Sequence record: KP869100
Source of the DNA: Escherichia typing phage 1
Direction: 5' to 3' (one strand)
DNA length: 64,000 bases
The position numbers and the translations under genes were made by a program. Under the pieces are notes generated by a model. The model saw only the letters and a program-made list of their open reading frames with translations. It was not told the DNA's origin and did no database searches. Below, one piece after another: positions 3,298 to 54,187 of this stretch (positions within the stretch are counted from its first letter, which is position 1; every line of letters starts with the position of its first letter).

Positions 3298-3802
3298 TAT
3301 CTTTTTCAATATCTTTTAAAGTTTTTTCTAAGTTCTTGATATTGAAGGATAAGCCTTCACCGAGAGTCTTAGAATAACCGCTAGGACGTAAATCATAAAG
3401 GCCAATTTGTTCTACATTGGAGAGGTTGACCATTTCACCGCTTACATCATAAGCTATTGATACGGTGTTTTCAGGGGCTTTATAGAACTTGTTAAGATTC
3501 TTGATAGAACGTTCATAAGCCATTTTATAACCATTTAAAAGGTCTTTAACGTGGTTGCGAACGTTTTTACACTCATCTAAGTAAATACCTAAGAATAGCG
3601 GTAACAGTTCTGCTACAGCTTGCATAAAGTGAGATACTACAACAGTAGAAACATTACGACGATGTATATAATAAGCCCCGTTTTCTGATTTAGTGATAGT
3701 TGCAAAGTGTACACCGTTGCAACGAAATTCGAAGGTATCTTTAACGGGTTTAGTCATAACGTTAGATGAGCGAATGTAGTTGATAGCTTGAAACTTGTTC
3801 AT
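3272..3802 (-). CDS. hypothetical protein
   Basis: 176-aa ORF preceded by cassette A3; no recognised domain. Confidence 0.55.
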   Translation of the reverse strand: MNKFQAINYIRSSNVMTKPVKDTFEFRCNGVHFATITKSENGAYYIHRRNVSTVVVSHFMQAVAELLPLFLGIYLDECKNVRNHVKDLLNGYKMAYERSIKNLNKFYKAPENTVSIAYDVSGEMVNLSNVEQIGLYDLRPSGYSKTLGEGLSFNIKNLEKTLKDIEKDIDETIKSL

Positions 3803-3895: not shown

Positions 3896-4023
3896 GCAAT
3901 TTTTTAAGTTTATCTATAAAGAATCTATTAAGTGAATCCCTTTTAGATAACCCCCTCGAACAAAGTTACCAATGTCAATGGGTATTGTCAACACTTTTTT
4001 AAAAGTTTTTTGTAAGTTATTGA

Positions 4024-10966: not shown

Positions 10967-11235
10967 TTCCTCGTTTTAAGAACTGCTAAGATTTCTTTAG
11001 AGTCTGGTAGGAACCATGTGTAGTGATTCTCTTTGATTTCTGGATGAGTGTCAACCTTTATTTTGCACTCTTTACCAACATGCTTAAGCTGTGCTGTGAT
11101 ACCTTGCATAAAGATGTGACACATTACATTATCCATAATCGTAGGTAAGAAATCAATCCTCATGTAAGTATCTTTCGGTCTCGGTAGAAGTAAGTAACCT
11201 TCTGTGTAGAAAGTTTCATCATTACTTTGTGTCAT
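10963..11235 (-). CDS. hypothetical protein
   Basis: 90-aa ORF; ATGA-type overlap with the upstream gene. Confidence 0.45.
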   Translation of the reverse strand: MTQSNDETFYTEGYLLLPRPKDTYMRIDFLPTIMDNVMCHIFMQGITAQLKHVGKECKIKVDTHPEIKENHYTWFLPDSKEILAVLKTRK

Positions 11236-11501
11236 TACTGCTTATTCCCTAATAAAATCATATCAATCAAGTTGTTAGCTTTCATAGTACACTGATAGTA
11301 CCCGTCACGATAAAACTCAAGGGCTTCTGATAAGTCTGCACCAGTGTTACCTTTGACAGCATATCTTACATCTTCCTGAGTGTACTTATCACTTTCACTT
11401 ACTTGGGAGTTTTTGAATGTATTGCTCACTTTGTTCGTTGAACACCCTGACATAGTTATCAGTAACACAAACATTATAAAACTCTGGCTTAGTCTTTTCA
11501 T
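11235..11501 (-). CDS. lipoprotein (outer-membrane spanin candidate)
   Basis: 88 aa; signal MKRLSQSFIMFVLLITMSGC with a lipobox-like Cys; overlaps the 3' end of the upstream membrane protein in another frame, as in Rz/Rz1. Confidence 0.4.
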   Translation of the reverse strand: MKRLSQSFIMFVLLITMSGCSTNKVSNTFKNSQVSESDKYTQEDVRYAVKGNTGADLSEALEFYRDGYYQCTMKANNLIDMILLGNKQ

Positions 11502-11742
11502 ATGTCAGTACCTCTTTTGTGTGCTTATTCTTAGCAAGCACGTCTTTCAAATCATTTTTGTAATTGGTGCTCAGTGTAGCTAATCCTTCCTGATAAGCAT
11601 CTTTAGCAACACTTATTAGCTTCTGGTTGTTTAGCTCAGTTTCAGCAACTTGGTAGTCTCTGTAAGAGTATCCTCCCCAGACACCTGCCCCAACTAAGAA
11701 AACAATTATGAAAGTAGCTTGACAGAACTCTTTAAATGTCAT
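11395..11742 (-). CDS. N-terminally membrane-anchored protein (inner-membrane spanin candidate)
   Basis: 115 aa; TM segment FIIVFLVGAGVWGGY then a helical periplasmic part; overlapping lipoprotein gene. Confidence 0.4.
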   Translation of the reverse strand: MTFKEFCQATFIIVFLVGAGVWGGYSYRDYQVAETELNNQKLISVAKDAYQEGLATLSTNYKNDLKDVLAKNKHTKEVLTYEKTKPEFYNVCVTDNYVRVFNEQSEQYIQKLPSK

Positions 11743-17176: not shown

Positions 17177-17353
17177 TTACTTATTAAACATTTTACCAGA
17201 ACCACCACACATAGGGCAACAACCTGCTCTTGTATACCCTTCTCCGTTACAGTAGTCACACTTCTTGTGTTCTGCAAAGTACTTACAAAGAAGATAAACA
17301 AGGACTGCTACACTACCAAGTGACAGTAAAATTTCTACCCAATATGCTTGCAT
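17177..17353 (-). CDS. unlisted 58-aa membrane-anchored zinc-ribbon peptide
   Basis: Hand-translated MQAYWVEILLSLGSVAVLVYLLCKYFAEHKKCDYCNGEGYTRAGCCPMCGGSGKMFNK; TM segment + CxxC..CxxC; below the track length cutoff. Confidence 0.35.
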   Translation of the reverse strand: MQAYWVEILLSLGSVAVLVYLLCKYFAEHKKCDYCNGEGYTRAGCCPMCGGSGKMFNK

Positions 17354-23137: not shown

Positions 23138-23529
23138 TCAAACACCACCTGACAAGGAACCTGTTTAGTAATAAATTCTTCGCAGTGTTCTTTAATGAAG
23201 TTTTGTAATGGCACACAATCTTGTGCACAAGTCATTAGTATAATGTACTCTGGATTCATAATGTTTTCAAGAGTGTAGAAGACAACATCGTTAGATAATT
23301 CATGACCGTCTTCTTCAGACCAAGTTCCAGAGACTACAGCTAATTTGTCAAGCAATTCATTAGGTAACGCTACGCCATCTTCTACGGAATCACTTAGAAC
23401 GTTGTCGCTGATGTACAATGTGAAGGTCGTATGGAATGTTGAATATCTTACGTGATTCTTTTCGCAAGAGCCACACTCTGAGGCATAATCTTTAATCCAC
23501 TCTAACTGTTTTTTGTTCAACTTAATCAT
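23134..23529 (-). CDS. hypothetical protein
   Basis: 131-aa ORF; ATGA overlap. Confidence 0.45.
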   Translation of the reverse strand: MIKLNKKQLEWIKDYASECGSCEKNHVRYSTFHTTFTLYISDNVLSDSVEDGVALPNELLDKLAVVSGTWSEEDGHELSNDVVFYTLENIMNPEYIILMTCAQDCVPLQNFIKEHCEEFITKQVPCQVVFE

Positions 23530-23726
23530 AATTTCACCTTAGTTGGCAATGCACTGAATGCTATGACTAACCCTAAAAATGGTTTGAAGCATGACCATAA
23601 ATCCATCTGACCCTGATATGCGAAACTCCATTGTGGGTCTGAAAAACCCCATACCATAACACTAACCCCAAAGAAGAAGATTAGAATGTGGAGAATGTAT
23701 ATCAACGCTTTTGATATTTTAAACAT
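23526..23726 (-). CDS. small membrane protein
   Basis: 66 aa; hydrophobic segments ILHILIFFFGVSVMVWGF and FLGLVIAFSAL. Confidence 0.4.
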   Translation of the reverse strand: MFKISKALIYILHILIFFFGVSVMVWGFSDPQWSFAYQGQMDLWSCFKPFLGLVIAFSALPTKVKL

Positions 23727-23880
23727 TTTAACTTGCCTCTTAATTCACAATAAGAGAGTCCTAAAAAGAACCCTAGTAAGACAGAACCTATGAACAACCC
23801 AATAATACTCTCTGCCATATCTAACATCCAATAAAAAAGGTGATGTAAGCCTATCAAGACTCACACCACCATGTCAAGTT

Positions 23881-48835: not shown

Positions 48836-49735
48836 ATGTCACAAGCAGATTCAAGTTATAAAAATATCCTGAACCATGTTTTATCAGTCGGTGAACTGCG
48901 TACTACACGAACTGGAGATGTTATCTCTGCATTTGCTCCACCTAAGTTTCGTTTTGATATGCGAACTGGTTTCCCGCTTTTAACATCTAAACAGGTGTTT
49001 ACACGGCAAGTTATTGGGGAAGCTCTATGGTTCCTGAACGGTGAGAATAAACTTGGTGAACTCCGTTATCGCACTTGGGGTGAAAATGATGGGGAACGCT
49101 GGACTATCTGGTCAGATGATTTTAAACGCTGGTTAAGTTCTAATTATTCTTCTGAACAAGATTGGTTAGAAGATGCAGGTGGGAGAATCTATGGGGTTCA
49201 GTGGAGAAACTTTGAAGGTCATAATGGTTGTGTTGTAGACCAGCTAGAGGCCTTAGTAACGAAGATGAAGGGTGATATCACAGACCGTTACATGCTTGTT
49301 AATGCTTGGAATGCAGCAGATATTGCAGCAAACTCAATGGCTTTAGCACCTTGTCATGTTCTGTTTCAGATTTATATCACTAATGAGGGTGAAGTTGACT
49401 TACAGTGGTATCAACGTTCAGTAGACACCTTTTTAGGACTTCCGTTTAATATTGCGTCTTATGGTTTCATCTTAGAAGTTCTTTGTAAGATGACTGGATA
49501 CACTCCACGGTACTTGATAGGTGTCTTTGGAGATACTCAGATTTATCAGAACCATATGAAACAGGTTTATGAACTGATGAACAATGAAGAGTTCCATGCA
49601 CCTACTTTTGAGATTGGTGTACAGCTTAACACCCTGAGTGACCTGAAACATCTTACTGCAAGTGATTTTATTGGTGGTATTAACAACTACCAACATGCAG
49701 GGAAGATTGAAGCACCTCTGTCAGTAGGTAAGTAA
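48836..49735 (+). CDS. thyA: thymidylate synthase
   Basis: 299 aa; catalytic block ALAPCHVLFQIY...LQWYQRSVDTFLGLPFNIASY. Confidence 0.9.
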   Translation: MSQADSSYKNILNHVLSVGELRTTRTGDVISAFAPPKFRFDMRTGFPLLTSKQVFTRQVIGEALWFLNGENKLGELRYRTWGENDGERWTIWSDDFKRWLSSNYSSEQDWLEDAGGRIYGVQWRNFEGHNGCVVDQLEALVTKMKGDITDRYMLVNAWNAADIAANSMALAPCHVLFQIYITNEGEVDLQWYQRSVDTFLGLPFNIASYGFILEVLCKMTGYTPRYLIGVFGDTQIYQNHMKQVYELMNNEEFHAPTFEIGVQLNTLSDLKHLTASDFIGGINNYQHAGKIEAPLSVGK

Positions 49736-49740
49736 AAACA

Positions 49741-49775
49741 AAAAAGGCTCCTTTTTACGGGAGCCTTAAATTTTA
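49741..49775. terminator. bidirectional intrinsic terminator between convergent blocks
   Basis: GGCTCC..GGGAGCC hairpin flanked by AAAAA and TTAAATTTTATTTTT. Confidence 0.55.
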
Positions 49776-50144
49776 TTTTTCAGTATTCTTTGTGTTCTTT
49801 TCAGTAATAGCTTGCAAGGCTGATACTGATTGAGCCAGATTGTTCACACTGTCAGAGAATTTATCAAGGGTTTTGGTAAGTTTTGCGTTTTCACCCTTAA
49901 CATTCTCTAACTGAACTTTCTGGTTCTCCATCCCTAGCTGAATCAATCTCATGTCAGACTGTAAATCACGAATAGCTGAATAGTTACTTTTGGAATAATT
50001 ATCTAGCTGCTGTAACTTTGTTGTGACAGACACTTCCTGCTTACCACTTGAGACTTGCATAGTGGTATACATCCCAATAACACTAAAAATACCAACTACA
50101 ATTGCACCAATATTATTTTTAAAAGCTTCCTCTAGCCACTTCAT
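49773..50144 (-). CDS. membrane-anchored coiled-coil protein (holin/antiholin- or spanin-like candidate)
   Basis: 123 aa; TM IGAIVVGIFSVIGMY then helical region. Confidence 0.45.
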   Translation of the reverse strand: MKWLEEAFKNNIGAIVVGIFSVIGMYTTMQVSSGKQEVSVTTKLQQLDNYSKSNYSAIRDLQSDMRLIQLGMENQKVQLENVKGENAKLTKTLDKFSDSVNNLAQSVSALQAITEKNTKNTEK

Positions 50145-50339
50145 TTATTTCTCCCCCTTAAAAGCTTTTTCTAAGTTATCTACGAACTCATCATCAATAG
50201 GTGTATCTGTTTTACTCGCAAGGTATCTTGCAAGCTTAAAGAACACTTTCTCAATCATGTATTCACTTAGAAGGGATAAAATGAGTTTCCAGAAGAAGCT
50301 ACCTAGATTTTTTAGAAGAATTGCTAGGATTGTAGGCAT
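50145..50339 (-). CDS. small membrane protein (holin candidate)
   Basis: 64 aa; hydrophobic ILAILLKNLGSFFWKLILSLL then charged tail. Confidence 0.4.
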   Translation of the reverse strand: MPTILAILLKNLGSFFWKLILSLLSEYMIEKVFFKLARYLASKTDTPIDDEFVDNLEKAFKGEK

Positions 50340-50418
50340 TTAATCACCTCATCAGCCAAGATGGTGAGAATACCCATAAAGAATATTAACACCATCTTAA
50401 CAATCAGTCAACAAGGGA

Positions 50419-52965
50419 TTAAGCAGTTCTTACCCAAGCCATTAACTTATAGAACTGGTTAGTAACACTAAATGCTGAACCAGAACCAGTACCACCTGTG
50501 TTACCGCTAACTGTGTGGCTGTGAGCACCAATACCAACAGTGTGGCTGTGGTTACCTGTTGTATTCGTTACACCAGACCAGTTTCTTGATGCGTTGAAGT
50601 TGACAGGGATACCATTAGTAAAGTTGTTACCAGTATACCCTTTAGAACCTGCCTGACTACCGAGGTAGAATGCACCACTTGCTGTGTAGAAGCTACTAGC
50701 GTCACTTCTGAAGTAACCAAATGAACCAGTAATCTCCATAGTACCTCTGTTGTGGTTGTGGTTACCAGTTGTGCTAGAAGTCTTAGTACCATAGTCAAAT
50801 GATGAAGTAGTAGCAGAGAATCTGTGCGTGTGTGAAGGTAAGTTACCAACAGACAACGTTACAGAGTCTGAACCACCAGTTGTAGCAACATCTGAACCGT
50901 TTGCTGCTGCAATTCTAATAGTTCTACCAACACCATTATTCAGGTACGTCCAAGTTAACCCAGGAAGTGCTGTGTTTGGGTTGACATTACTGTTAAACCA
51001 CGTCACAATACCTACTGGATAGATTTTATTCAGGTCTGTAGAGTCACTAATTGCTTCTGCAATCTTCTGGTCAGTCTCTGCTTTAGTGTATGCACCAATA
51101 TCTGAAGGGGTTGGTTTTTGCAAACTTGTGTAGTATTTTGCAATTGTACCCTTCACAATACCTTGTGGAGCATCATCAAATGTCTGTGGGACTTCAAACA
51201 ACTGTACACTTGCATTACTAGAAGACTGAACCCTTGTCGTTGTGCTGTTTTGATACGTACCAGCAAGATAGTAAATATCATAGGTGTCTCCAGAAGTATT
51301 CACATAACCAATATCCCTGACAATGGTGTTCTCTGATGTTCTCCAAGCAACAACATTTAAGCCCTTTGGATTGTTATTTGAAGTTCGCAGAACAATTTCA
51401 CATTTACCTGCTTGGTTTGGTGTATTAATATTAAAACCTGACCCACCAAATACCTCAATAACAGCAGTGGATGCTGATTGTGGCATCACAACAGTGGCAA
51501 TTTTAGCCCACTTATCAGTGTTTCCCACATTGAAGCTAGTGCTTCTGATTCTTAGGTATCTACTATCACTAGCACTTTGCGTAAAGTATCTAGCATCTAA
51601 GTTAGAGAAATCTGAAGGTTGAACTTGTCCAGCAATAGTCAATGTTTTGTTAATGTATGATGTTGTATTCCCGAGAACCAATTGGGTTCCAGAATAACTG
51701 TTATTTAGGGTAACATCATTCGTGTCAGCACCACCAACACCAATCCACCATCTTGATACATTAGTAGTGTCCACACCACGAATATATAATGGTCTATTCT
51801 GAGTAGAGTTTTTAACAATCAGACCTTCATTATCCGTAACAACTGTCTGTACACCATTAAAAGTATTCCTTGCATTAGTTCTTGCAATCGTACTTAATGT
51901 TGCTACCGGAATATATCTAGAGTCAATGTTAGCCCAATCTGAAGGTTGGACTTGTCCAGTGATTTGCACAGTTTTATTGATACCAATAGTAGTACCTAGT
52001 GAAACCTGTGAACCTGTAAGGTAGTTATAAATGTTTAGACGTGTCTCGTCAGAATCTGTACCAACATACCATTTATTTGTTCCATCAGACTTCTTACCGA
52101 GAATGTAAAGTGCTGTATTTGCATCAGTATTCTGCAAAGTAATGGCATTAGCATTCTTCTTAGCAACAAGGTTAGTGAAAGTGTTAGCACCTGTAAAAGT
52201 ATTATTGCCAGCTAACTGTGCAAATCTCTGATTAGCTGCCGTCTGAGTAAAGTATCTAGCATCTAAGTTAGAGAAATCAGAAGGCTGAACTTGACCAGTG
52301 ATTGCTAAAGACTTATTAACAGAGATATTACTTGCAACAGTCAAGACTGAGTTGTATTTGCTATTGTACAGCTTTACTTCGTCAGAGCCATTACTACCAA
52401 TACCAACCCACCATCTAGCCGAACCATCTAGGTTTACACCTTCAATATATTGTGCATTATTTGCATTTTGGTTTCTAAGGCGAAGTAAGTTAGCATCACC
52501 TTGAATGTTCTGAGTCCCAGAGAATGTGTTTGTGATAGCAAGTCTTGCATATCTTGCGTCATTCTCTTCATTAGTTCTCATACCAAGCTCATTAGGACTT
52601 GGCTTATTCAGAGTATGATAAACAGTTGCTGACCTTGAAGCATCTGCAATAGTTAGTTTAAGACCACTTGCGTTAAGTTTAAAAGTCTTTAAAACATCCC
52701 CAATAGTAATCTCAGAAGAACCTGTAGGGTCAAATACTGCCTTACCACCGTAAAGTAACTTGACAATACCTAAATCCCCCGTCATAGTGCTTCCAGCAAT
52801 CTGAACAAACCTTTCTAGTTTGAAGGAAGCTAAGAAGTCTTGATAGGTCATTCTACGGTCTTCGTCACCCAACATTTCAGGTCTTTTCTTAACTCTGATG
52901 TGCAATAGGTCTTCTGAACGAATTGTGTCGATTGAGTTTAACTGACTCAATTTGTAATCTGCCAT
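50419..52965 (-). CDS. tail fibre protein (long, His-rich C-terminal tip)
   Basis: Start trimmed to the ATG at 52965 behind an AGAGGA SD; Gly/Ser/Thr/Asn-rich repeats; C-terminal HTH/HNH/HSH triplets; C-terminus homologous to the upstream fibre. Confidence 0.75.
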   Translation of the reverse strand: MADYKLSQLNSIDTIRSEDLLHIRVKKRPEMLGDEDRRMTYQDFLASFKLERFVQIAGSTMTGDLGIVKLLYGGKAVFDPTGSSEITIGDVLKTFKLNASGLKLTIADASRSATVYHTLNKPSPNELGMRTNEENDARYARLAITNTFSGTQNIQGDANLLRLRNQNANNAQYIEGVNLDGSARWWVGIGSNGSDEVKLYNSKYNSVLTVASNISVNKSLAITGQVQPSDFSNLDARYFTQTAANQRFAQLAGNNTFTGANTFTNLVAKKNANAITLQNTDANTALYILGKKSDGTNKWYVGTDSDETRLNIYNYLTGSQVSLGTTIGINKTVQITGQVQPSDWANIDSRYIPVATLSTIARTNARNTFNGVQTVVTDNEGLIVKNSTQNRPLYIRGVDTTNVSRWWIGVGGADTNDVTLNNSYSGTQLVLGNTTSYINKTLTIAGQVQPSDFSNLDARYFTQSASDSRYLRIRSTSFNVGNTDKWAKIATVVMPQSASTAVIEVFGGSGFNINTPNQAGKCEIVLRTSNNNPKGLNVVAWRTSENTIVRDIGYVNTSGDTYDIYYLAGTYQNSTTTRVQSSSNASVQLFEVPQTFDDAPQGIVKGTIAKYYTSLQKPTPSDIGAYTKAETDQKIAEAISDSTDLNKIYPVGIVTWFNSNVNPNTALPGLTWTYLNNGVGRTIRIAAANGSDVATTGGSDSVTLSVGNLPSHTHRFSATTSSFDYGTKTSSTTGNHNHNRGTMEITGSFGYFRSDASSFYTASGAFYLGSQAGSKGYTGNNFTNGIPVNFNASRNWSGVTNTTGNHSHTVGIGAHSHTVSGNTGGTGSGSAFSVTNQFYKLMAWVRTA

Positions 52966-53011
52966 TATGAATTTTCCTCTTAAAAGGGGCTTTATAGCCC
53001 CTGTAAAGAAA

Positions 53012-54187
53012 TTAAGCTGTTCTCTGCCACACATACACTACAAAAGATGGCTGCTCAACACTGAAAGCTTGACCACCACCAACAGAACCAGATGTCCCTG
53101 AGTGTGTATGCTCAGAGCTAGAAACAGTAACAGTGCCTGTATGACTGTGCGAACCAATATTAACAGTGTGGCTGTGAGCACCAATTGCGACAGTATGGCT
53201 ATGAGCACCAGATGATGCAGTTGTACCTGAGAAGCTATGGGTGTGAGCACCAGCTAAATCAGTATACATAGCATTACCAACACCAGCATCAGCAGATGCA
53301 GTAATAGCGTTTGTGCCACCCCTATCATTACCCCTCATAGGGACTCTATGGTTGTGGTTACCAGCATTACTTGTTGTGCCACTAAACGTGTGAGTGTGAG
53401 CACCAGCACTATTAGTCGTTTTTGTACCGTAATCAAAAGTTGATGTACTTTTTGAACCATAATCAAAACTAGAGATAGATACACTTGCAGAGTGTGTATG
53501 ACCACCACCTGTTAGATAGATAGAGTGAGTATGTGCTGGTAAATTATTATTTGTTAATGCTACAGTCTGAGAACCAAACGTTGAACCAACAGGTCTAGAA
53601 TCTGTATCATAACCAACTAGTGCTCTACCTTTAGAAACTAACTCCCAAGTACCTCCACAAAGCAAGTAAGTGGATGGGTTAGCAGAGTTAACAGATAGAT
53701 GAATAGTCCCTACTGGATATGACGCTTGGATAGCTTTGTATAAATTATTAACTGCTTTCGCGGTAGCATACTTATCAGCATCTTCATTGTACAGATTAGA
53801 TGTTGTCCAGTTCTGAACATTACTTAAACCAACCTGTGCTTTCGTTGTATTGTGTGGGTTACTTTTGTCGTCAATATGTTGCTGAATTAAGTTATTCACT
53901 TCCTCTGACGACATAATTTGTAGATTTGCTCTTGCCTCAGCAACACTTACAATATCTGACAAGTTATTAGCTGCAACTAATTGAAGAGAGTTAATAACAT
54001 TATCAAGACCTACTTGTGATTTAGTTACACCATGAGGGTTATTCCTCAAAGATGCGTGAGGTGCTAACAACTGCTCAAGCGTACATCTTTTATCCTCAAC
54101 ACCTTGCTTAAGGTGGAAGATATCACTCAAATCAACTGGTAAGGCCGCTTGTGGCAAGGCACTAATTTGAATTTCACCTACTGCCAT
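53012..54187 (-). CDS. tail fibre protein (short paralogue)
   Basis: 391 aa; His-rich C-terminal repeats (AHTHSFSGTT, GAHSHTVAIGAHSHTV) and a C-terminus matching the other fibre. Confidence 0.7.
   Translation of the reverse strand: MAVGEIQISALPQAALPVDLSDIFHLKQGVEDKRCTLEQLLAPHASLRNNPHGVTKSQVGLDNVINSLQLVAANNLSDIVSVAEARANLQIMSSEEVNNLIQQHIDDKSNPHNTTKAQVGLSNVQNWTTSNLYNEDADKYATAKAVNNLYKAIQASYPVGTIHLSVNSANPSTYLLCGGTWELVSKGRALVGYDTDSRPVGSTFGSQTVALTNNNLPAHTHSIYLTGGGHTHSASVSISSFDYGSKSTSTFDYGTKTTNSAGAHTHTFSGTTSNAGNHNHRVPMRGNDRGGTNAITASADAGVGNAMYTDLAGAHTHSFSGTTASSGAHSHTVAIGAHSHTVNIGSHSHTGTVTVSSSEHTHSGTSGSVGGGQAFSVEQPSFVVYVWQRTA

What the first reader, a model, noticed from the sequence alone, without database searches (positions are those of the whole stretch)
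49773..50339. Two small membrane proteins at the 3' end of the tail-fibre operon
A 64-aa protein with one hydrophobic helix and a charged tail, and a 123-aa protein with an N-terminal TM helix followed by a long helical region, lie after the tail fibres and before a bidirectional terminator. They could be the holin/antiholin missing from the lysis cluster, or a superinfection-exclusion or fibre-assembly pair.
Basis: inference. Interest (0 to 1): 0.4.

Follow-up and report, generated by a model that had tools for sequence, protein, structure and literature searches.

The report
PM2-type lysis gene pair in Felix-O1-like phage
The two small genes after the tail fibre of this Felix-O1-like phage are real and strongly conserved, and they most likely form a host-lysis pair like the P17/P18 pair of phage PM2, which gives a testable candidate for the Felix O1 holin that has never been pinned down.

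Summary
The window is a Felixounavirus, 100% identical to phage wV8 across the 721 bases compared. Both ORFs exist on the minus strand. gp84 is 50339..50145 (64 aa) and gp85 is 50144..49773 (123 aa). They abut (TAA then ATG), lie under strong purifying selection (dN/dS 0.02-0.05), and end at a bidirectional terminator.

gp85 has one TM helix followed by an 83-residue single helix. Some GenBank records already call it "putative holin", from topology only.

gp84 is "hypothetical" in every record listed. It belongs to phrog_402 / Pfam PF26925 "Phage_PM2_Gpl", the family of corticovirus PM2 protein P18 (hhalign 95.9%). P18 is reported to help disintegrate the outer membrane during lysis. In PM2 it sits next to the holin P17, which has the same TM-plus-coil architecture as gp85 but no detectable sequence homology.

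In other phages gp84 relatives lie directly after endolysins, next to the T4-type holin t, or next to other TM-plus-coil proteins.

Best reading: a PM2-like two-gene lysis module, with gp85 as holin and gp84 as accessory lysis factor, coexisting with a canonical spanin pair. No experiment on either protein was found. The fibre-assembly and superinfection-exclusion readings are poorly supported.

The parts
50145..50339 (-). gp84 (wV8 gene 84), 64 aa. Member of phrog_402 / Pfam PF26925 Phage_PM2_Gpl, the PM2 P18 family. Three predicted helices and an invariant T44...D49-D50 motif.
   Evidence: ORF. phrog_402 at E 1.4e-22. PF26925 precomputed on proteins 81-98% identical, with the family name given. 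hhalign to PM2 gp l: prob 95.9%, E 6.5e-9. PM2 gp l itself hits phrog_402 at E 8e-14. AlphaFold2 pLDDT 85.6. dN/dS 0.04.
49773..50144 (-). gp85 (wV8 gene 85), 123 aa. N-terminal TM helix plus an 83-residue single helix (coiled-coil type). Candidate holin with PM2-P17-like architecture.
   Evidence: ORF. phrog_4038 at E 1.7e-71, no Pfam family above cutoff. AlphaFold2 helix 3-32 and helix 40-122. The only PDB sequence matches are coiled coils. Annotated "putative holin" in Moogle and Sf14. dN/dS 0.02.
49744..49767 (.). Bidirectional rho-independent terminator between gp85 and the convergent thymidylate synthase gene.
   Evidence: Predicted on both strands. Annotated in wV8 and in Felix O1 as t79/t80.
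50340..50418 (-). 79-nt spacer between the tail-fibre stop and the gp84 start. It holds a sigma-70-like motif, TTGACT-17-TGtTAATAT (50411..50383), a 9-bp inverted repeat (AAGATGGTG / CACCATCTT), and the gp84 Shine-Dalgarno.
   Evidence: The motif is conserved in Felixounavirus and Mooglevirus. phiEa21-4 and Zyzzx have terminator hairpins here instead. Function not shown.
50419..53034 (-). Upstream neighbour: long tail fibre with gp37-type trimerisation repeats and His-x-His tip motifs. Context only.
   Evidence: phrog_4277 at E 0; Pfam gp37_trimer at E 2e-75.
11395..11742 (-). i-spanin of the same genome. Context: the phage already has canonical outer-membrane disruption genes.
   Evidence: phrog_1152 Rz-like spanin at E 9e-42. 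Annotated as i-spanin in Bas63.
11235..11501 (-). o-spanin, overlapping the i-spanin gene, with lipobox ITMSG|C.
   Evidence: Bas63 annotation. Kongari 2018 lists Felix O1 spanins as overlapped.

Best explanation
gp84 and gp85 form a two-gene host-lysis module of the kind described for the membrane-containing phage PM2 (P17 plus P18).

**gp85.** It is a single-pass inner-membrane protein with a long coiled-coil domain. It is the candidate holin. It would accumulate in the membrane and at a set time permeabilise it. That would let the soluble lysozyme, encoded elsewhere in the genome, reach the wall.

**gp84.** It is a small three-helix, strongly amphipathic protein homologous to PM2 P18. It would act with or after the holin to complete envelope breakdown. 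In PM2 this is the outer-membrane step.

**Expression.** The two genes are translationally coupled. They are expressed from the end of the late region.

**Shown here:**
- Both genes are real.
- gp84 is homologous to PM2 P18.
- gp85 has the stated architecture.
- P18-family genes recur next to endolysins, holins and TM-plus-coil proteins.

**Inferred:**
- gp85 is the holin.
- gp84 acts in lysis in this phage.
- The step at which gp84 acts.
For: 1. gp84 belongs to the PM2 P18 family.
   - phrog_402 at E 1.4e-22.
   - PM2 gp l hits the same PHROG at E 8e-14.
   - PF26925 'Phage_PM2_Gpl' is precomputed on near-identical proteins.
   - hhalign gives 95.9%, E 6.5e-9, 36% identity over 44 columns.
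2. PM2 P17 is reported to puncture the cytoplasmic membrane. P18 is reported to help disintegrate the outer membrane (review PMC6356626 citing Krupovic et al. 2007).
3. In PM2 and three relatives, gene k (TMD plus short coil) directly precedes gene l. gp85 has the same architecture.
4. The pairing of a P18-like gene with a TMD-plus-coil protein recurs elsewhere.
   - It recurs in four Ounavirinae lineages (Felixounavirus, Mooglevirus, Kolesnikvirus and the unclassified Hafnia phage Zyzzx).
   - It recurs in IMG/VR contigs L023/L024, which lie at the T7 holin position before TerS.
   - It recurs in L032 and in Vibrio phage VA-RY-3.
5. P18-like genes lie directly after endolysins of three types.
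   - Endolysin family phrog_465 (T5-type L-Ala-D-Glu peptidase by my reading of the sequence) in five IMG/VR contigs.
   - Endolysin family phrog_315 (GH108-like N-terminus by my reading of the sequence) in two IMG/VR contigs.
   - Phage_lysozyme and GH108 in Vibrio phages.
6. In Krischvirus Phi1 the homologue sits between gp37 and the T holin gene (Phage_holin_T at E 4.5e-61).
7. Center for Phage Technology annotators called the gp85 orthologue a putative holin (PMC4319497). They described a class-III-type holin in Mushroom (PMC4392139). The Felix O1 genome paper listed gp79 among holin candidates.
8. There is strong purifying selection on both genes.
9. The genes abut, stop then start.
Against: - No experiment on gp84 or gp85 was found. 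A 2019 announcement from the same annotation centre states that no holin was identified in a Felix-O1-like phage (PMC6486253).
- gp85 shows no sequence homology to PM2 P17, to the other TM-plus-coil partners, or to T4 T.
- The phage already encodes a spanin pair. An outer-membrane role for gp84 would therefore be redundant or different.
- Unlike PM2 P18, gp84 and most tailed-phage members carry a 21-26-residue hydrophobic N-terminal helix. They could be integral membrane proteins with a different job.
- In phiEco32-like phages the P18-like gene has no lysis neighbour.
- Other small membrane proteins in the genome are rival holin candidates.
- The Sf14 orthologue of gp85 was detected by mass spectrometry in virion preparations (PMC11821841).
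- A sigma-70-like motif upstream and RT-PCR in Felix O1 (ORF 79 maximal at 5 min) hint at non-late expression. That RT-PCR table also puts the capsid gene at 5 min, so it is weak evidence.
Confidence: 0.55

Rival explanations
1. The roles are reversed or regulatory. gp84 is itself the holin, or an antiholin or other regulator that binds a holin. It would have an N-out/C-in single TM helix plus a charged cytoplasmic tail. gp85 would be the accessory partner.
For: - 22 of 30 family members have an N-terminal helix with Kyte-Doolittle >= 1.6 and a positively charged C-flank.
- In seven IMG/VR contigs the P18-like gene is the only membrane-type gene next to the endolysin on that strand.
- It pairs with unrelated holin types. 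These are T in Krischvirus, two-TMD proteins in L027/L028, and a one-TMD protein in Cronobacter phage Ss1. That pattern is what a portable regulator or second holin would show.
- It is small with a charged C-terminus, which fits generic holin criteria.
Against: - The only characterised member, PM2 P18, is reported to act on the outer membrane, while P17 permeabilises the inner membrane.
- From my memory of Krupovic 2007, which I could not read in the library, P18 is described as having no TMD.
- The N-terminal helix carries 1-2 conserved Lys/Arg and is amphipathic.
- There is no homology to any Pfam holin family or to the T7/SP6 holin.
Confidence: 0.2
2. gp85, possibly with gp84, is a virion or tail-fibre-associated protein. 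It would be a trimeric coiled-coil accessory or assembly factor for the adjacent long tail fibre, not a lysis protein.
For: - It lies immediately after the two tail-fibre genes throughout Ounavirinae.
- The Sf14 orthologue gp55 was detected by mass spectrometry of particles (PMC11821841 Table 1).
- The whole 83-residue helix is unusually well conserved although synonymous sites are saturated. That suggests an extended protein-protein interface.
- A PDB profile search picks the reovirus sigma-1 fibre coiled coil at E 0.011.
- P18-like genes in phiEco32-like and several podophages lie among tail genes.
Against: - Stringent virion proteomics of Felix O1 did not find gp78 or gp79.
- A term search of the Bas63 cryo-EM paper found no mention of gp28 or gp29. 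The Sf14 paper models both fibres as single proteins.
- The Sf14 sample was a TCA-precipitated lysate preparation in which an assembly chaperone was also detected. Contamination by an abundant membrane protein is therefore plausible.
- gp85 has a TM-like N-terminus.
- The P18 family occurs in tailless PM2, and next to endolysins far from any fibre gene.
- There is no match to Tfa/gp38-type chaperone families.
Confidence: 0.12
3. The pair is an early or middle expressed membrane module for superinfection exclusion or membrane protection, carried next to the receptor-binding genes as T5 llp or cor are.
For: - A conserved sigma-70-like promoter motif with an extended -10 lies in the spacer.
- Felix O1 RT-PCR gives ORF 79 maximal at 5 min and ORF 78 at 25 min.
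- The pair lies next to receptor-binding proteins.
Against: - The number of promoter-like hits in the region equals the chance expectation (10 found against a mean of 10.0).
- The RT-PCR table also places capsid and tail genes at 5 min.
- Exclusion proteins usually co-vary with receptor specificity. gp84 relatives are conserved across phages of Escherichia, Erwinia, Vibrio, Aeromonas and Pseudoalteromonas with unrelated receptor-binding proteins.
- The family's one characterised member is a lysis protein.
- There are no PADLOC or exclusion-family matches.
Confidence: 0.06

Closest known systems
Pseudoalteromonas phage PM2 (Corticoviridae) lysis proteins P17 (gp k) and P18 (gp l). Krupovic, Daugelavicius & Bamford 2007, as summarised in PMC6356626.
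   Same: - gp84 is a sequence homologue of P18. Both match the same PHROG and Pfam family, and hhalign gives 95.9%.
- Both share the helix-2 / T-x-T/N-x-x-D-D/N / helix-3 core.
- In both phages the P18-type gene abuts a gene for a small protein with an N-terminal TM helix followed by a coiled coil. Both pairs lie at the very end of the late structural operon.
   Different: - Gene order is reversed: k then l in PM2, P18-like then TM-coil here.
- gp85 (123 aa) is much longer than P17 (53 aa) and shows no detectable sequence homology to it.
- gp84 has about 10 extra hydrophobic N-terminal residues that make a TM-length helix. PM2 P18 lacks them, and its ORF cannot be extended.
- PM2 is listed as spanin-less. 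From my memory of Krupovic 2007, it uses host autolysins.
- This phage has spanins. Felix O1 has a lysozyme-type lysin, gp35.
T4-type lysis gene placement: gp37 - gp38 - t (class III holin T). In Krischvirus (RB49/Phi1): gp37 - ORF252 - t.
   Same: - A holin-type gene lies at the end of the tail-fibre gene block, far from the endolysin.
- It encodes a single TM helix with a large non-cytoplasmic-type domain.
- In Phi1 the gp84 homologue ORF252 sits exactly between gp37 and t.
- rIIA and rIIB are also present in this genome.
   Different: - gp85 does not match Pfam Phage_holin_T, whereas Phi1 t does at E 4.5e-61.
- The gp85 ectodomain is predicted to be a single long helix. By my recollection the T periplasmic domain is globular.
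Two-component spanins (lambda Rz/Rz1 type).
   Same: - gp85 has the i-spanin-like build: an N-terminal TM helix and a long helical, coiled-coil domain.
- It gives weak PHROG hits to Rz-like spanins at E 0.009-0.04.
- PM2 P18 is reported to help disintegrate the outer membrane. By my recollection its loss gives the spanin-like phenotype of blocked lysis when the outer membrane is stabilised by divalent cations.
   Different: - There is no lipoprotein partner. The lipobox-like embedded ORF (50095..50003) is interrupted by stop codons in Moogle and Sf14, so it is chance.
- A bona fide overlapped spanin pair exists elsewhere in the genome.
Phage phiKT gp28 "disruptin", a cationic amphipathic peptide replacing spanins (from my own knowledge; not read here).
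   Same: It is a small helical amphipathic protein proposed to act on the outer membrane at the last step of lysis without a lipoprotein partner.
   Different: - gp84-family proteins are not cationic. Net charge runs from -3 to +3, and is 0 for gp84.
- They have a conserved acidic motif.
- No sequence relation was tested.

Membership tests
PM2 P18 family (Pfam PF26925 Phage_PM2_Gpl / phrog_402), for gp84 | Significant match to the family models, and to PM2 gp l itself. | tested here: met
   phrog_402 at E 1.4e-22 for gp84 and E 8.2e-14 for PM2 gp l. PF26925 is precomputed on proteins 81-98% identical to gp84, with the name given. hhalign of PM2 gp l against the family alignment gives prob 95.9%, E 6.5e-9. 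PF26925 is not in the local Pfam copy, so hmmscan gave nothing.
PM2 P18 family, for gp84 | Conserved core: amphipathic helix 2, then T-x-T/N-x-x-D-D/N, then acidic helix 3. | tested here: met
   T44, D49 and D50 are invariant, and E26 and F34 near-invariant, in 25 diverse members. PM2 has S-E-N-T-L-D-N at the aligned site. Three helices are predicted.
PM2 P18 family, for gp84 | No transmembrane domain (as PM2 gp l was described, from memory of Krupovic 2007). | tested here: not met
   gp84 has a 25-residue hydrophobic N-terminal helix with Kyte-Doolittle 1.56. 22 of 30 members reach 1.6 or more. PM2 gp l has only 15 residues there (Kyte-Doolittle 1.10) and cannot be extended upstream. This is a difference in anatomy, not in homology.
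PM2 P18 family, for gp84 | Required for completion of lysis (outer-membrane disruption). | not testable with these tools
   Only genomic context could be examined: adjacency to endolysins, holins and TM-coil proteins in many lineages.
PM2 P17 (gp k) holin, for gp85 | Sequence homology to P17. | tested here: not met
   hhalign gives prob 0.5% (single sequence) and 2.3% (profile against profile). The PHROGs differ: phrog_32586 against phrog_4038.
PM2 P17 (gp k) holin, for gp85 | Architecture: short N-terminus, one TM helix, C-terminal coiled coil, gene abutting the P18-type gene. | tested here: met
Holins in general, for gp85 | Small size, at least one TMD, a hydrophilic charged C-terminus, and late expression. 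| tested here: inconclusive
   Size, TMD and a charged C-terminal end (EKNTKNTEK) are present. Expression timing is unresolved. Topology by the positive-inside rule is ambiguous, from my inspection of the sequence. Membrane permeabilisation is not testable here.
T4 T holin (Pfam PF11031 Phage_holin_T, class III), for gp85 | Match to the family model. | tested here: not met
   There is no hit at E <= 1. The positive control, Phi1 t, scores E 4.5e-61.
Two-component spanin (i-spanin), for gp85 | A cognate outer-membrane lipoprotein gene that is embedded, overlapping or adjacent. | tested here: not met
   The only lipobox-like ORF inside gene 85 is not conserved in Moogle, Sf14, phiEa21-4 or Zyzzx. 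The true spanin pair is at 11235..11742.
T7-type holin (Pfam PF10746), for gp84 | Match to the family model or to SP6/T7 holin. | tested here: not met
   There is no Pfam hit. hhalign of the SP6 holin against the family gives prob 0.2%. The SP6 control hits PF10746 at E 1e-32.
Tail-fibre assembly chaperones (Tfa / gp38 type), for either protein | Match to a known chaperone family. | tested here: not met
   There is no Pfam or NCBIfam match. The only PHROG hit is a noise-level one, "tail assembly chaperone" at E 0.18.

The most novel reading that the evidence does not exclude
P18-family proteins (phrog_402 / PF26925) are a widespread, so far unrecognised component of Gram-negative phage lysis. 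They would be shared between tailless corticoviruses and many tailed phages: Ounavirinae, RB49-like T-evens, phiEco32-like and T7-like marine phages. They would work together with single-pass coiled-coil holins or other holins. Their presence in phages that also carry spanins would mean they are not just spanin substitutes. They would perform a distinct step, for example a second route of outer-membrane or envelope disruption, or control of holin lesions.
Probability: 0.3. Interest if true: 0.65.

Novelty: new member of a known kind. Interest (0 to 1): 0.45.

Why it matters
**Felix O1 holin.** Felix O1 and its relatives are classic diagnostic and biocontrol phages. Their holin has never been identified. 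The 2010 genome paper lists five candidates. Later annotations disagree between "putative holin", "holin", "hypothetical" and "not identified".

**What the PM2 link adds.** Linking the pair to the PM2 P17/P18 system gives a concrete two-gene hypothesis that can be tested with standard lambda or PM2 complementation and knockouts.

**P18 itself.** PM2 P18 has stood, by my recollection, as a lysis factor "without precedent". Finding its family in hundreds of tailed-phage genomes could clarify how phages finish lysis. The genes often lie in the slot where spanins normally sit, and sometimes occur alongside spanins. The finding could also correct hundreds of "hypothetical protein" annotations.

Tried and rejected
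**Homology and structure tests that came back negative**
- **Embedded o-spanin in gene 85.** A 30-aa +1-frame ORF (50095..50003) begins MVFLVLLGC, which is lipobox-like. The frame is broken by stops in Moogle and Sf14 and absent in phiEa21-4 and Zyzzx. Rejected as chance.
- **gp85 as a T4 T homologue.** No Pfam hit.
- **gp85 as a PM2 P17 homologue.** No signal in hhalign. The same holds for the other TM-coil partners from L023 and L032.
- **gp84 as a T7/SP6-type holin.** None.
- **Weak DivIC, SMC and Rz hits for gp85.** All are below cutoffs and typical coiled-coil noise.
- **Fold searches with the gp84 model.** BFVD returned only uncharacterised family members. PDB returned nothing significant; the best hit was saposin C at E 3.3.
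- **PDB sequence searches.** Nothing for gp84. Only coiled coils for gp85.
- **PADLOC.** Noise only.

**Searches limited by the tools**
- The word-indexed homologue search found only near-identical proteins.
- The exhaustive search gave 17 representatives.
- Cluster names were uninformative.
- Locus searches failed with the full family alignment and with one subgroup.

**Literature**
- No experimental work on these genes was found.
- The PhageMaP per-gene fitness tables for Bas63 are not held.
- The cap on papers was reached before the PRR1 paper (PMC11054506), which mentions PM2, could be read.

**Other**
- I did not find the endolysin among the ten window ORFs tested. It probably lies outside the window.
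Full report
**Identity of the window**

A 721-base stretch across the finding (49700-50420) is 100% identical to Escherichia phage wV8 and several O157 typing phages. It is 97-99% identical to many other Felixounavirus genomes. The finding corresponds to wV8 genes 84 and 85, which match Felix O1 NP_944925 and NP_944927.

**The observation**

Both ORFs are on the minus strand. gp84 is 50339..50145 (64 aa) and gp85 is 50144..49773 (123 aa).
- gp84 has a GAGGTG ribosome-binding site.
- The gp85 ATG follows the gp84 TAA stop without a gap, and its ribosome-binding site lies in the last codons of gp84. This arrangement suggests translational coupling.

The genes are clearly real.
- PHROG profile matches are E 1.4e-22 (phrog_402) and E 1.7e-71 (phrog_4038), both families of "unknown function".
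- tblastn finds intact copies in 396 and 259 phage records.
- Against the Mooglevirus orthologues dN/dS is 0.04 and 0.02, while synonymous sites are saturated (dS 1.3-3.0).

- Upstream lies a gp37-like long tail fibre, 53034..50419.
- Downstream lies a hairpin at 49744-49767 that scores as a terminator on both strands. It is annotated as a terminator in wV8 and in Felix O1.
- Beyond it are the convergent thymidylate synthase and dihydrofolate reductase genes.

**Anatomy of the two proteins**

gp85:
- It has an uncharged segment at residues 11-29, with Kyte-Doolittle 1.62.
- AlphaFold2 predicts helix 3-32, a low-confidence linker (29-37), and one uninterrupted helix 40-122. Block mean pLDDT is 85-97 over residues 41-120.
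- At 1.5 Å per residue, the 83-residue helix would be about 12 nm long.
- Its only PDB sequence matches are designed or natural coiled coils.

gp84:
- It is predicted as three helices, 2-23, 26-43 and 47-61, with pLDDT 85.6.
- Helix 1 is hydrophobic (Kyte-Doolittle 1.56) but amphipathic. T3, K10, N11, S14, K18 and S22 lie on one narrow face (and my inspection).
- The rest of the protein is amphipathic and acidic.

**What gp84 is**

An exhaustive profile-free search found 17 cluster representatives. tblastn found relatives at under 60% identity in 140 phage records outside the close Felix-O1 group. These include Erwinia phiEa21-4, RB49-like T-evens, phiEco32-like podophages, and Vibrio, Aeromonas, Cronobacter and Proteus phages.

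An alignment of 25 diverse members shows these conserved features:
- T44, D49 and D50 are invariant.
- E26 and F34 are nearly invariant.
- The consensus is LxKxLxxFGxKLLxxLxxE-MIxWxFFKxAxxLAxxTxTxxDDEF.

The precomputed Pfam label on these proteins is PF26925. Its name, shown in a later output, is Phage_PM2_Gpl. This family is not in the local Pfam copy, which is why hmmscan returned nothing.

I fetched the PM2 genome and tested the link directly.
- PM2 gp l (51 aa) aligns to the family profile with hhalign probability 95.9%, E 6.5e-9, and 36% identity over 44 columns.
- PM2 gp l itself hits phrog_402 at E 8.2e-14.

So gp84 is a homologue of PM2 gp l, also called protein P18.

According to the review PMC6356626, citing Krupovic, Daugelavicius and Bamford 2007:
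- PM2 lysis starts when P17 punctures the cytoplasmic membrane.
- Host factors probably degrade the wall.

From my own memory of the 2007 paper, which I could not read in the library:
- gp k (P17) is a 53-aa, one-TMD holin.
- gp l (P18) was described as having no TMD and no precedent.

Kongari et al. 2018 list PM2 among spanin-less phages.

**The partner**

In PM2, gene k directly precedes and overlaps gene l. Its product is an N-terminal TM helix followed by a short coiled coil. Three PM2 relatives in IMG/VR keep the same pair.

This is the architecture of gp85, only shorter. Sequence homology is not detectable: hhalign gives 0.5-2.3%.

The same pairing, a P18-like gene next to an unrelated TM-plus-coil protein, recurs in several places.
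- It is present in the Ounavirinae sampled: wV8, Moogle, Sf14, phiEa21-4 and Hafnia phage Zyzzx.
- It occurs in two marine-type contigs whose order is [307 aa]-[91-aa TM+coil]-[P18-like]-TerS-TerL. That is the slot where T7 keeps its holin.
- It occurs in a 45-kb contig, L032, where an 80-aa TM+coil protein follows the P18-like gene.
- It occurs in Vibrio phage VA-RY-3, as [93-aa TM+coil]-[DUF5675 protein]-[P18-like].

**Other contexts of the family**

- In seven IMG/VR contigs the P18-like gene lies immediately after an endolysin, with no other membrane-type gene nearby on that strand. Five contigs carry a phrog_465 endolysin, which I read as T5-type L-Ala-D-Glu peptidase. Two carry a phrog_315 endolysin, which I read as GH108-like.
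- In Vibrio phages 2.095.A and 1.090.B it follows a Phage_lysozyme and a GH108 endolysin respectively.
- In Krischvirus Phi1 it lies between gp37 and the T holin gene. This is where T4 has gene 38 (Phage_holin_T at E 4.5e-61).
- In L027/L028 it follows a two-TMD, holin-like protein before TerS.
- In Cronobacter phage Ss1 it precedes a 68-aa one-TMD protein.
- In phiEco32-like phages (7-11, 3H10_20, LAh_6, PKM.Lu.22.1), and in L025, L026 and L033, no lysis neighbour is evident.

Association with lysis genes is therefore frequent across unrelated lineages but not universal. I did not run a statistical census.

**State of knowledge on gp85**

- The Felix O1 genome paper (2010) listed gp79 among five possible holins.
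- The Center for Phage Technology annotated the Moogle orthologue as "putative holin" (PMC4319497).
- The same centre described a class-III-type holin with one TMD, N-in/C-out, in Mushroom (PMC4392139). The Mushroom record nonetheless calls the gene hypothetical.
- "Holin" has since spread by transfer to many GenBank and UniRef entries.
- Yet the 2019 Meda announcement says a holin was not identified, and BASEL left both genes hypothetical.
- I found no experiment.

One relevant datum: virion mass spectrometry of Shigella phage Sf14 detected gp55, labelled "Holin or lysozyme". I confirmed that gp55 is the gp85 orthologue. Stringent Felix O1 virion proteomics did not detect it.

**Why the pair is not the spanin, and what else is in the genome**

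- The window contains an overlapped spanin pair. The i-spanin is 11742..11395 (phrog_1152, E 9e-42). The o-spanin is 11501..11235, with lipobox ITMSG|C.
- A lipobox-like ORF embedded in gene 85 is not conserved and is chance.
- Other small membrane proteins are rival holin candidates. One is a 66-aa two-TMD protein and another is an overlapping 51-aa one-TMD protein, both downstream of nrdD. A third is a 58-aa TM plus zinc-ribbon-like protein upstream of rIIA.
- None of these matches a holin family.

**Regulation**

The 79-nt spacer before gp84 contains TTGACT-17-TGtTAATAT and a 9-bp inverted repeat. Both are conserved in Felixounavirus and Mooglevirus. phiEa21-4 and Zyzzx have genuine terminator hairpins there instead.

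The number of promoter-like hits in the region is no higher than chance.

Felix O1 RT-PCR shows both ORFs are transcribed. ORF 78 is maximal at 25 min and ORF 79 at 5 min. The same table places capsid genes at 5 min, so I do not trust its timing.

The pair may be expressed by attenuated read-through from the fibre genes, or from its own promoter. This is unresolved.

**Most likely mechanism**

I read the pair as a PM2-type lysis module.
- gp85 is the holin. It would be a single-pass protein that oligomerises through its long helix and permeabilises the inner membrane.
- gp84 is a P18-type accessory factor. It would act with or after the holin to complete envelope disruption.

Unlike PM2 P18, gp84 and 22 of 30 members examined have a TM-length N-terminal helix with one or two conserved basic residues. 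Net charge is near zero. So gp84 is probably membrane-anchored or membrane-inserting, and it is not a cationic peptide of the disruptin type.

Because spanins are present, gp84 is either a parallel route to outer-membrane failure or has a different role with the holin. Its conserved acidic T-x-T-x-x-D-D-E loop is unexplained. A cation-binding role is only a speculation of mine.

I estimate confidence as follows:
- about 0.55 that both genes act in lysis;
- about 0.45 that gp85 is the holin;
- about 0.4 that gp84 acts at a post-holin step.

**Rivals**

The rival readings are reversed or regulatory roles (gp84 as holin or antiholin), a virion or fibre accessory role for gp85, and superinfection exclusion. 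They are set out in the rival section, each with the experiments that would decide it.

**Novelty and score**

Homology of gp84 to PM2 gp l is already encoded in Pfam and PHROGs. gp85 is already called "putative holin" in some records. So this is a new member of a known kind, not a new kind.

What I did not find in the papers I could search:
- recognition of the pair as a PM2-like module in Felix-O1-like phages;
- the recurrent pairing of P18-like genes with TM-coil proteins;
- the placement of P18-like genes after endolysins or beside T;
- their coexistence with spanins.

I score interest at 0.45.

Noticed in passing
window 23526..23726 (-) and 23702..23857 (-): Two overlapping small membrane-protein genes lie directly downstream of nrdD. 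One is 66 aa with two hydrophobic segments (phrog_11929) and one is 51 aa with one TM helix and a basic tail (phrog_20082). They are unannotated rival holin/antiholin candidates and are labelled only "membrane protein".
   Followed up: partly
window 17177..17353 (-): A 58-aa protein lies just upstream of rIIA. It has an N-terminal TM helix followed by two CxxC pairs (CDYCNGEG...CCPMCGGSG), resembling a DnaJ-type zinc ribbon. It matches phrog_3931, of unknown function.
   Followed up: no
window 50340..50418 (-): There is a 9-bp inverted repeat (AAGATGGTG ... CACCATCTT, 22-nt loop) with no T-run. It overlaps a sigma-70-like motif with an extended -10. phiEa21-4 (L008 about 3940-3975) and Zyzzx (L010 about 1285-1310) have true terminator hairpins at the equivalent place.
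   Followed up: partly
L003 / L009 (Mushroom) 1594-1695 and L002 (bumzen) 3446-3559: Gene 84 is annotated as a truncated 33-37-aa protein starting at internal Met28 in Mushroom and bumzen. The full 64-codon ORF is intact in Mushroom, where tblastn gives 98% identity over residues 1-64. Most of the hydrophobic N-terminal helix is lost from those annotations.
   Followed up: partly
L043 (Vibrio phage VA-RY-3) 1828-2683: A compact cassette reads [93-aa TM + coiled coil] - [129-aa DUF5675 protein] - [P18-like 67 aa]. To my eye the DUF5675 protein carries a YkuD-like H..GN....GCI motif. It may be an unrecognised peptidoglycan hydrolase or endolysin.
   Followed up: partly
L017-L022, L029 (IMG/VR contigs, about 40 kb, GC 0.55-0.58): The same P18-like gene is found after two unrelated endolysin families (phrog_465 and phrog_315) in otherwise similar contigs. 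This indicates modular swapping of the endolysin while the P18-like gene is kept.
   Followed up: partly
PMC11821841 Table 1 (Sf14 gp55 = L030 1695-2069): The orthologue of gp85 was detected by mass spectrometry in Sf14 particle preparations and labelled "Holin or lysozyme". The paper does not discuss this further. It is unexplained if gp85 is purely an inner-membrane lysis protein.
   Followed up: partly
window 49773..50144 compared with L011 and L030: The coiled-coil part of gp85 (residues about 70-115) is identical in amino-acid sequence between Felixounavirus and Mooglevirus, although synonymous sites are saturated. This is unusual for a holin-type protein and suggests an extended specific interface.
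   Followed up: partly
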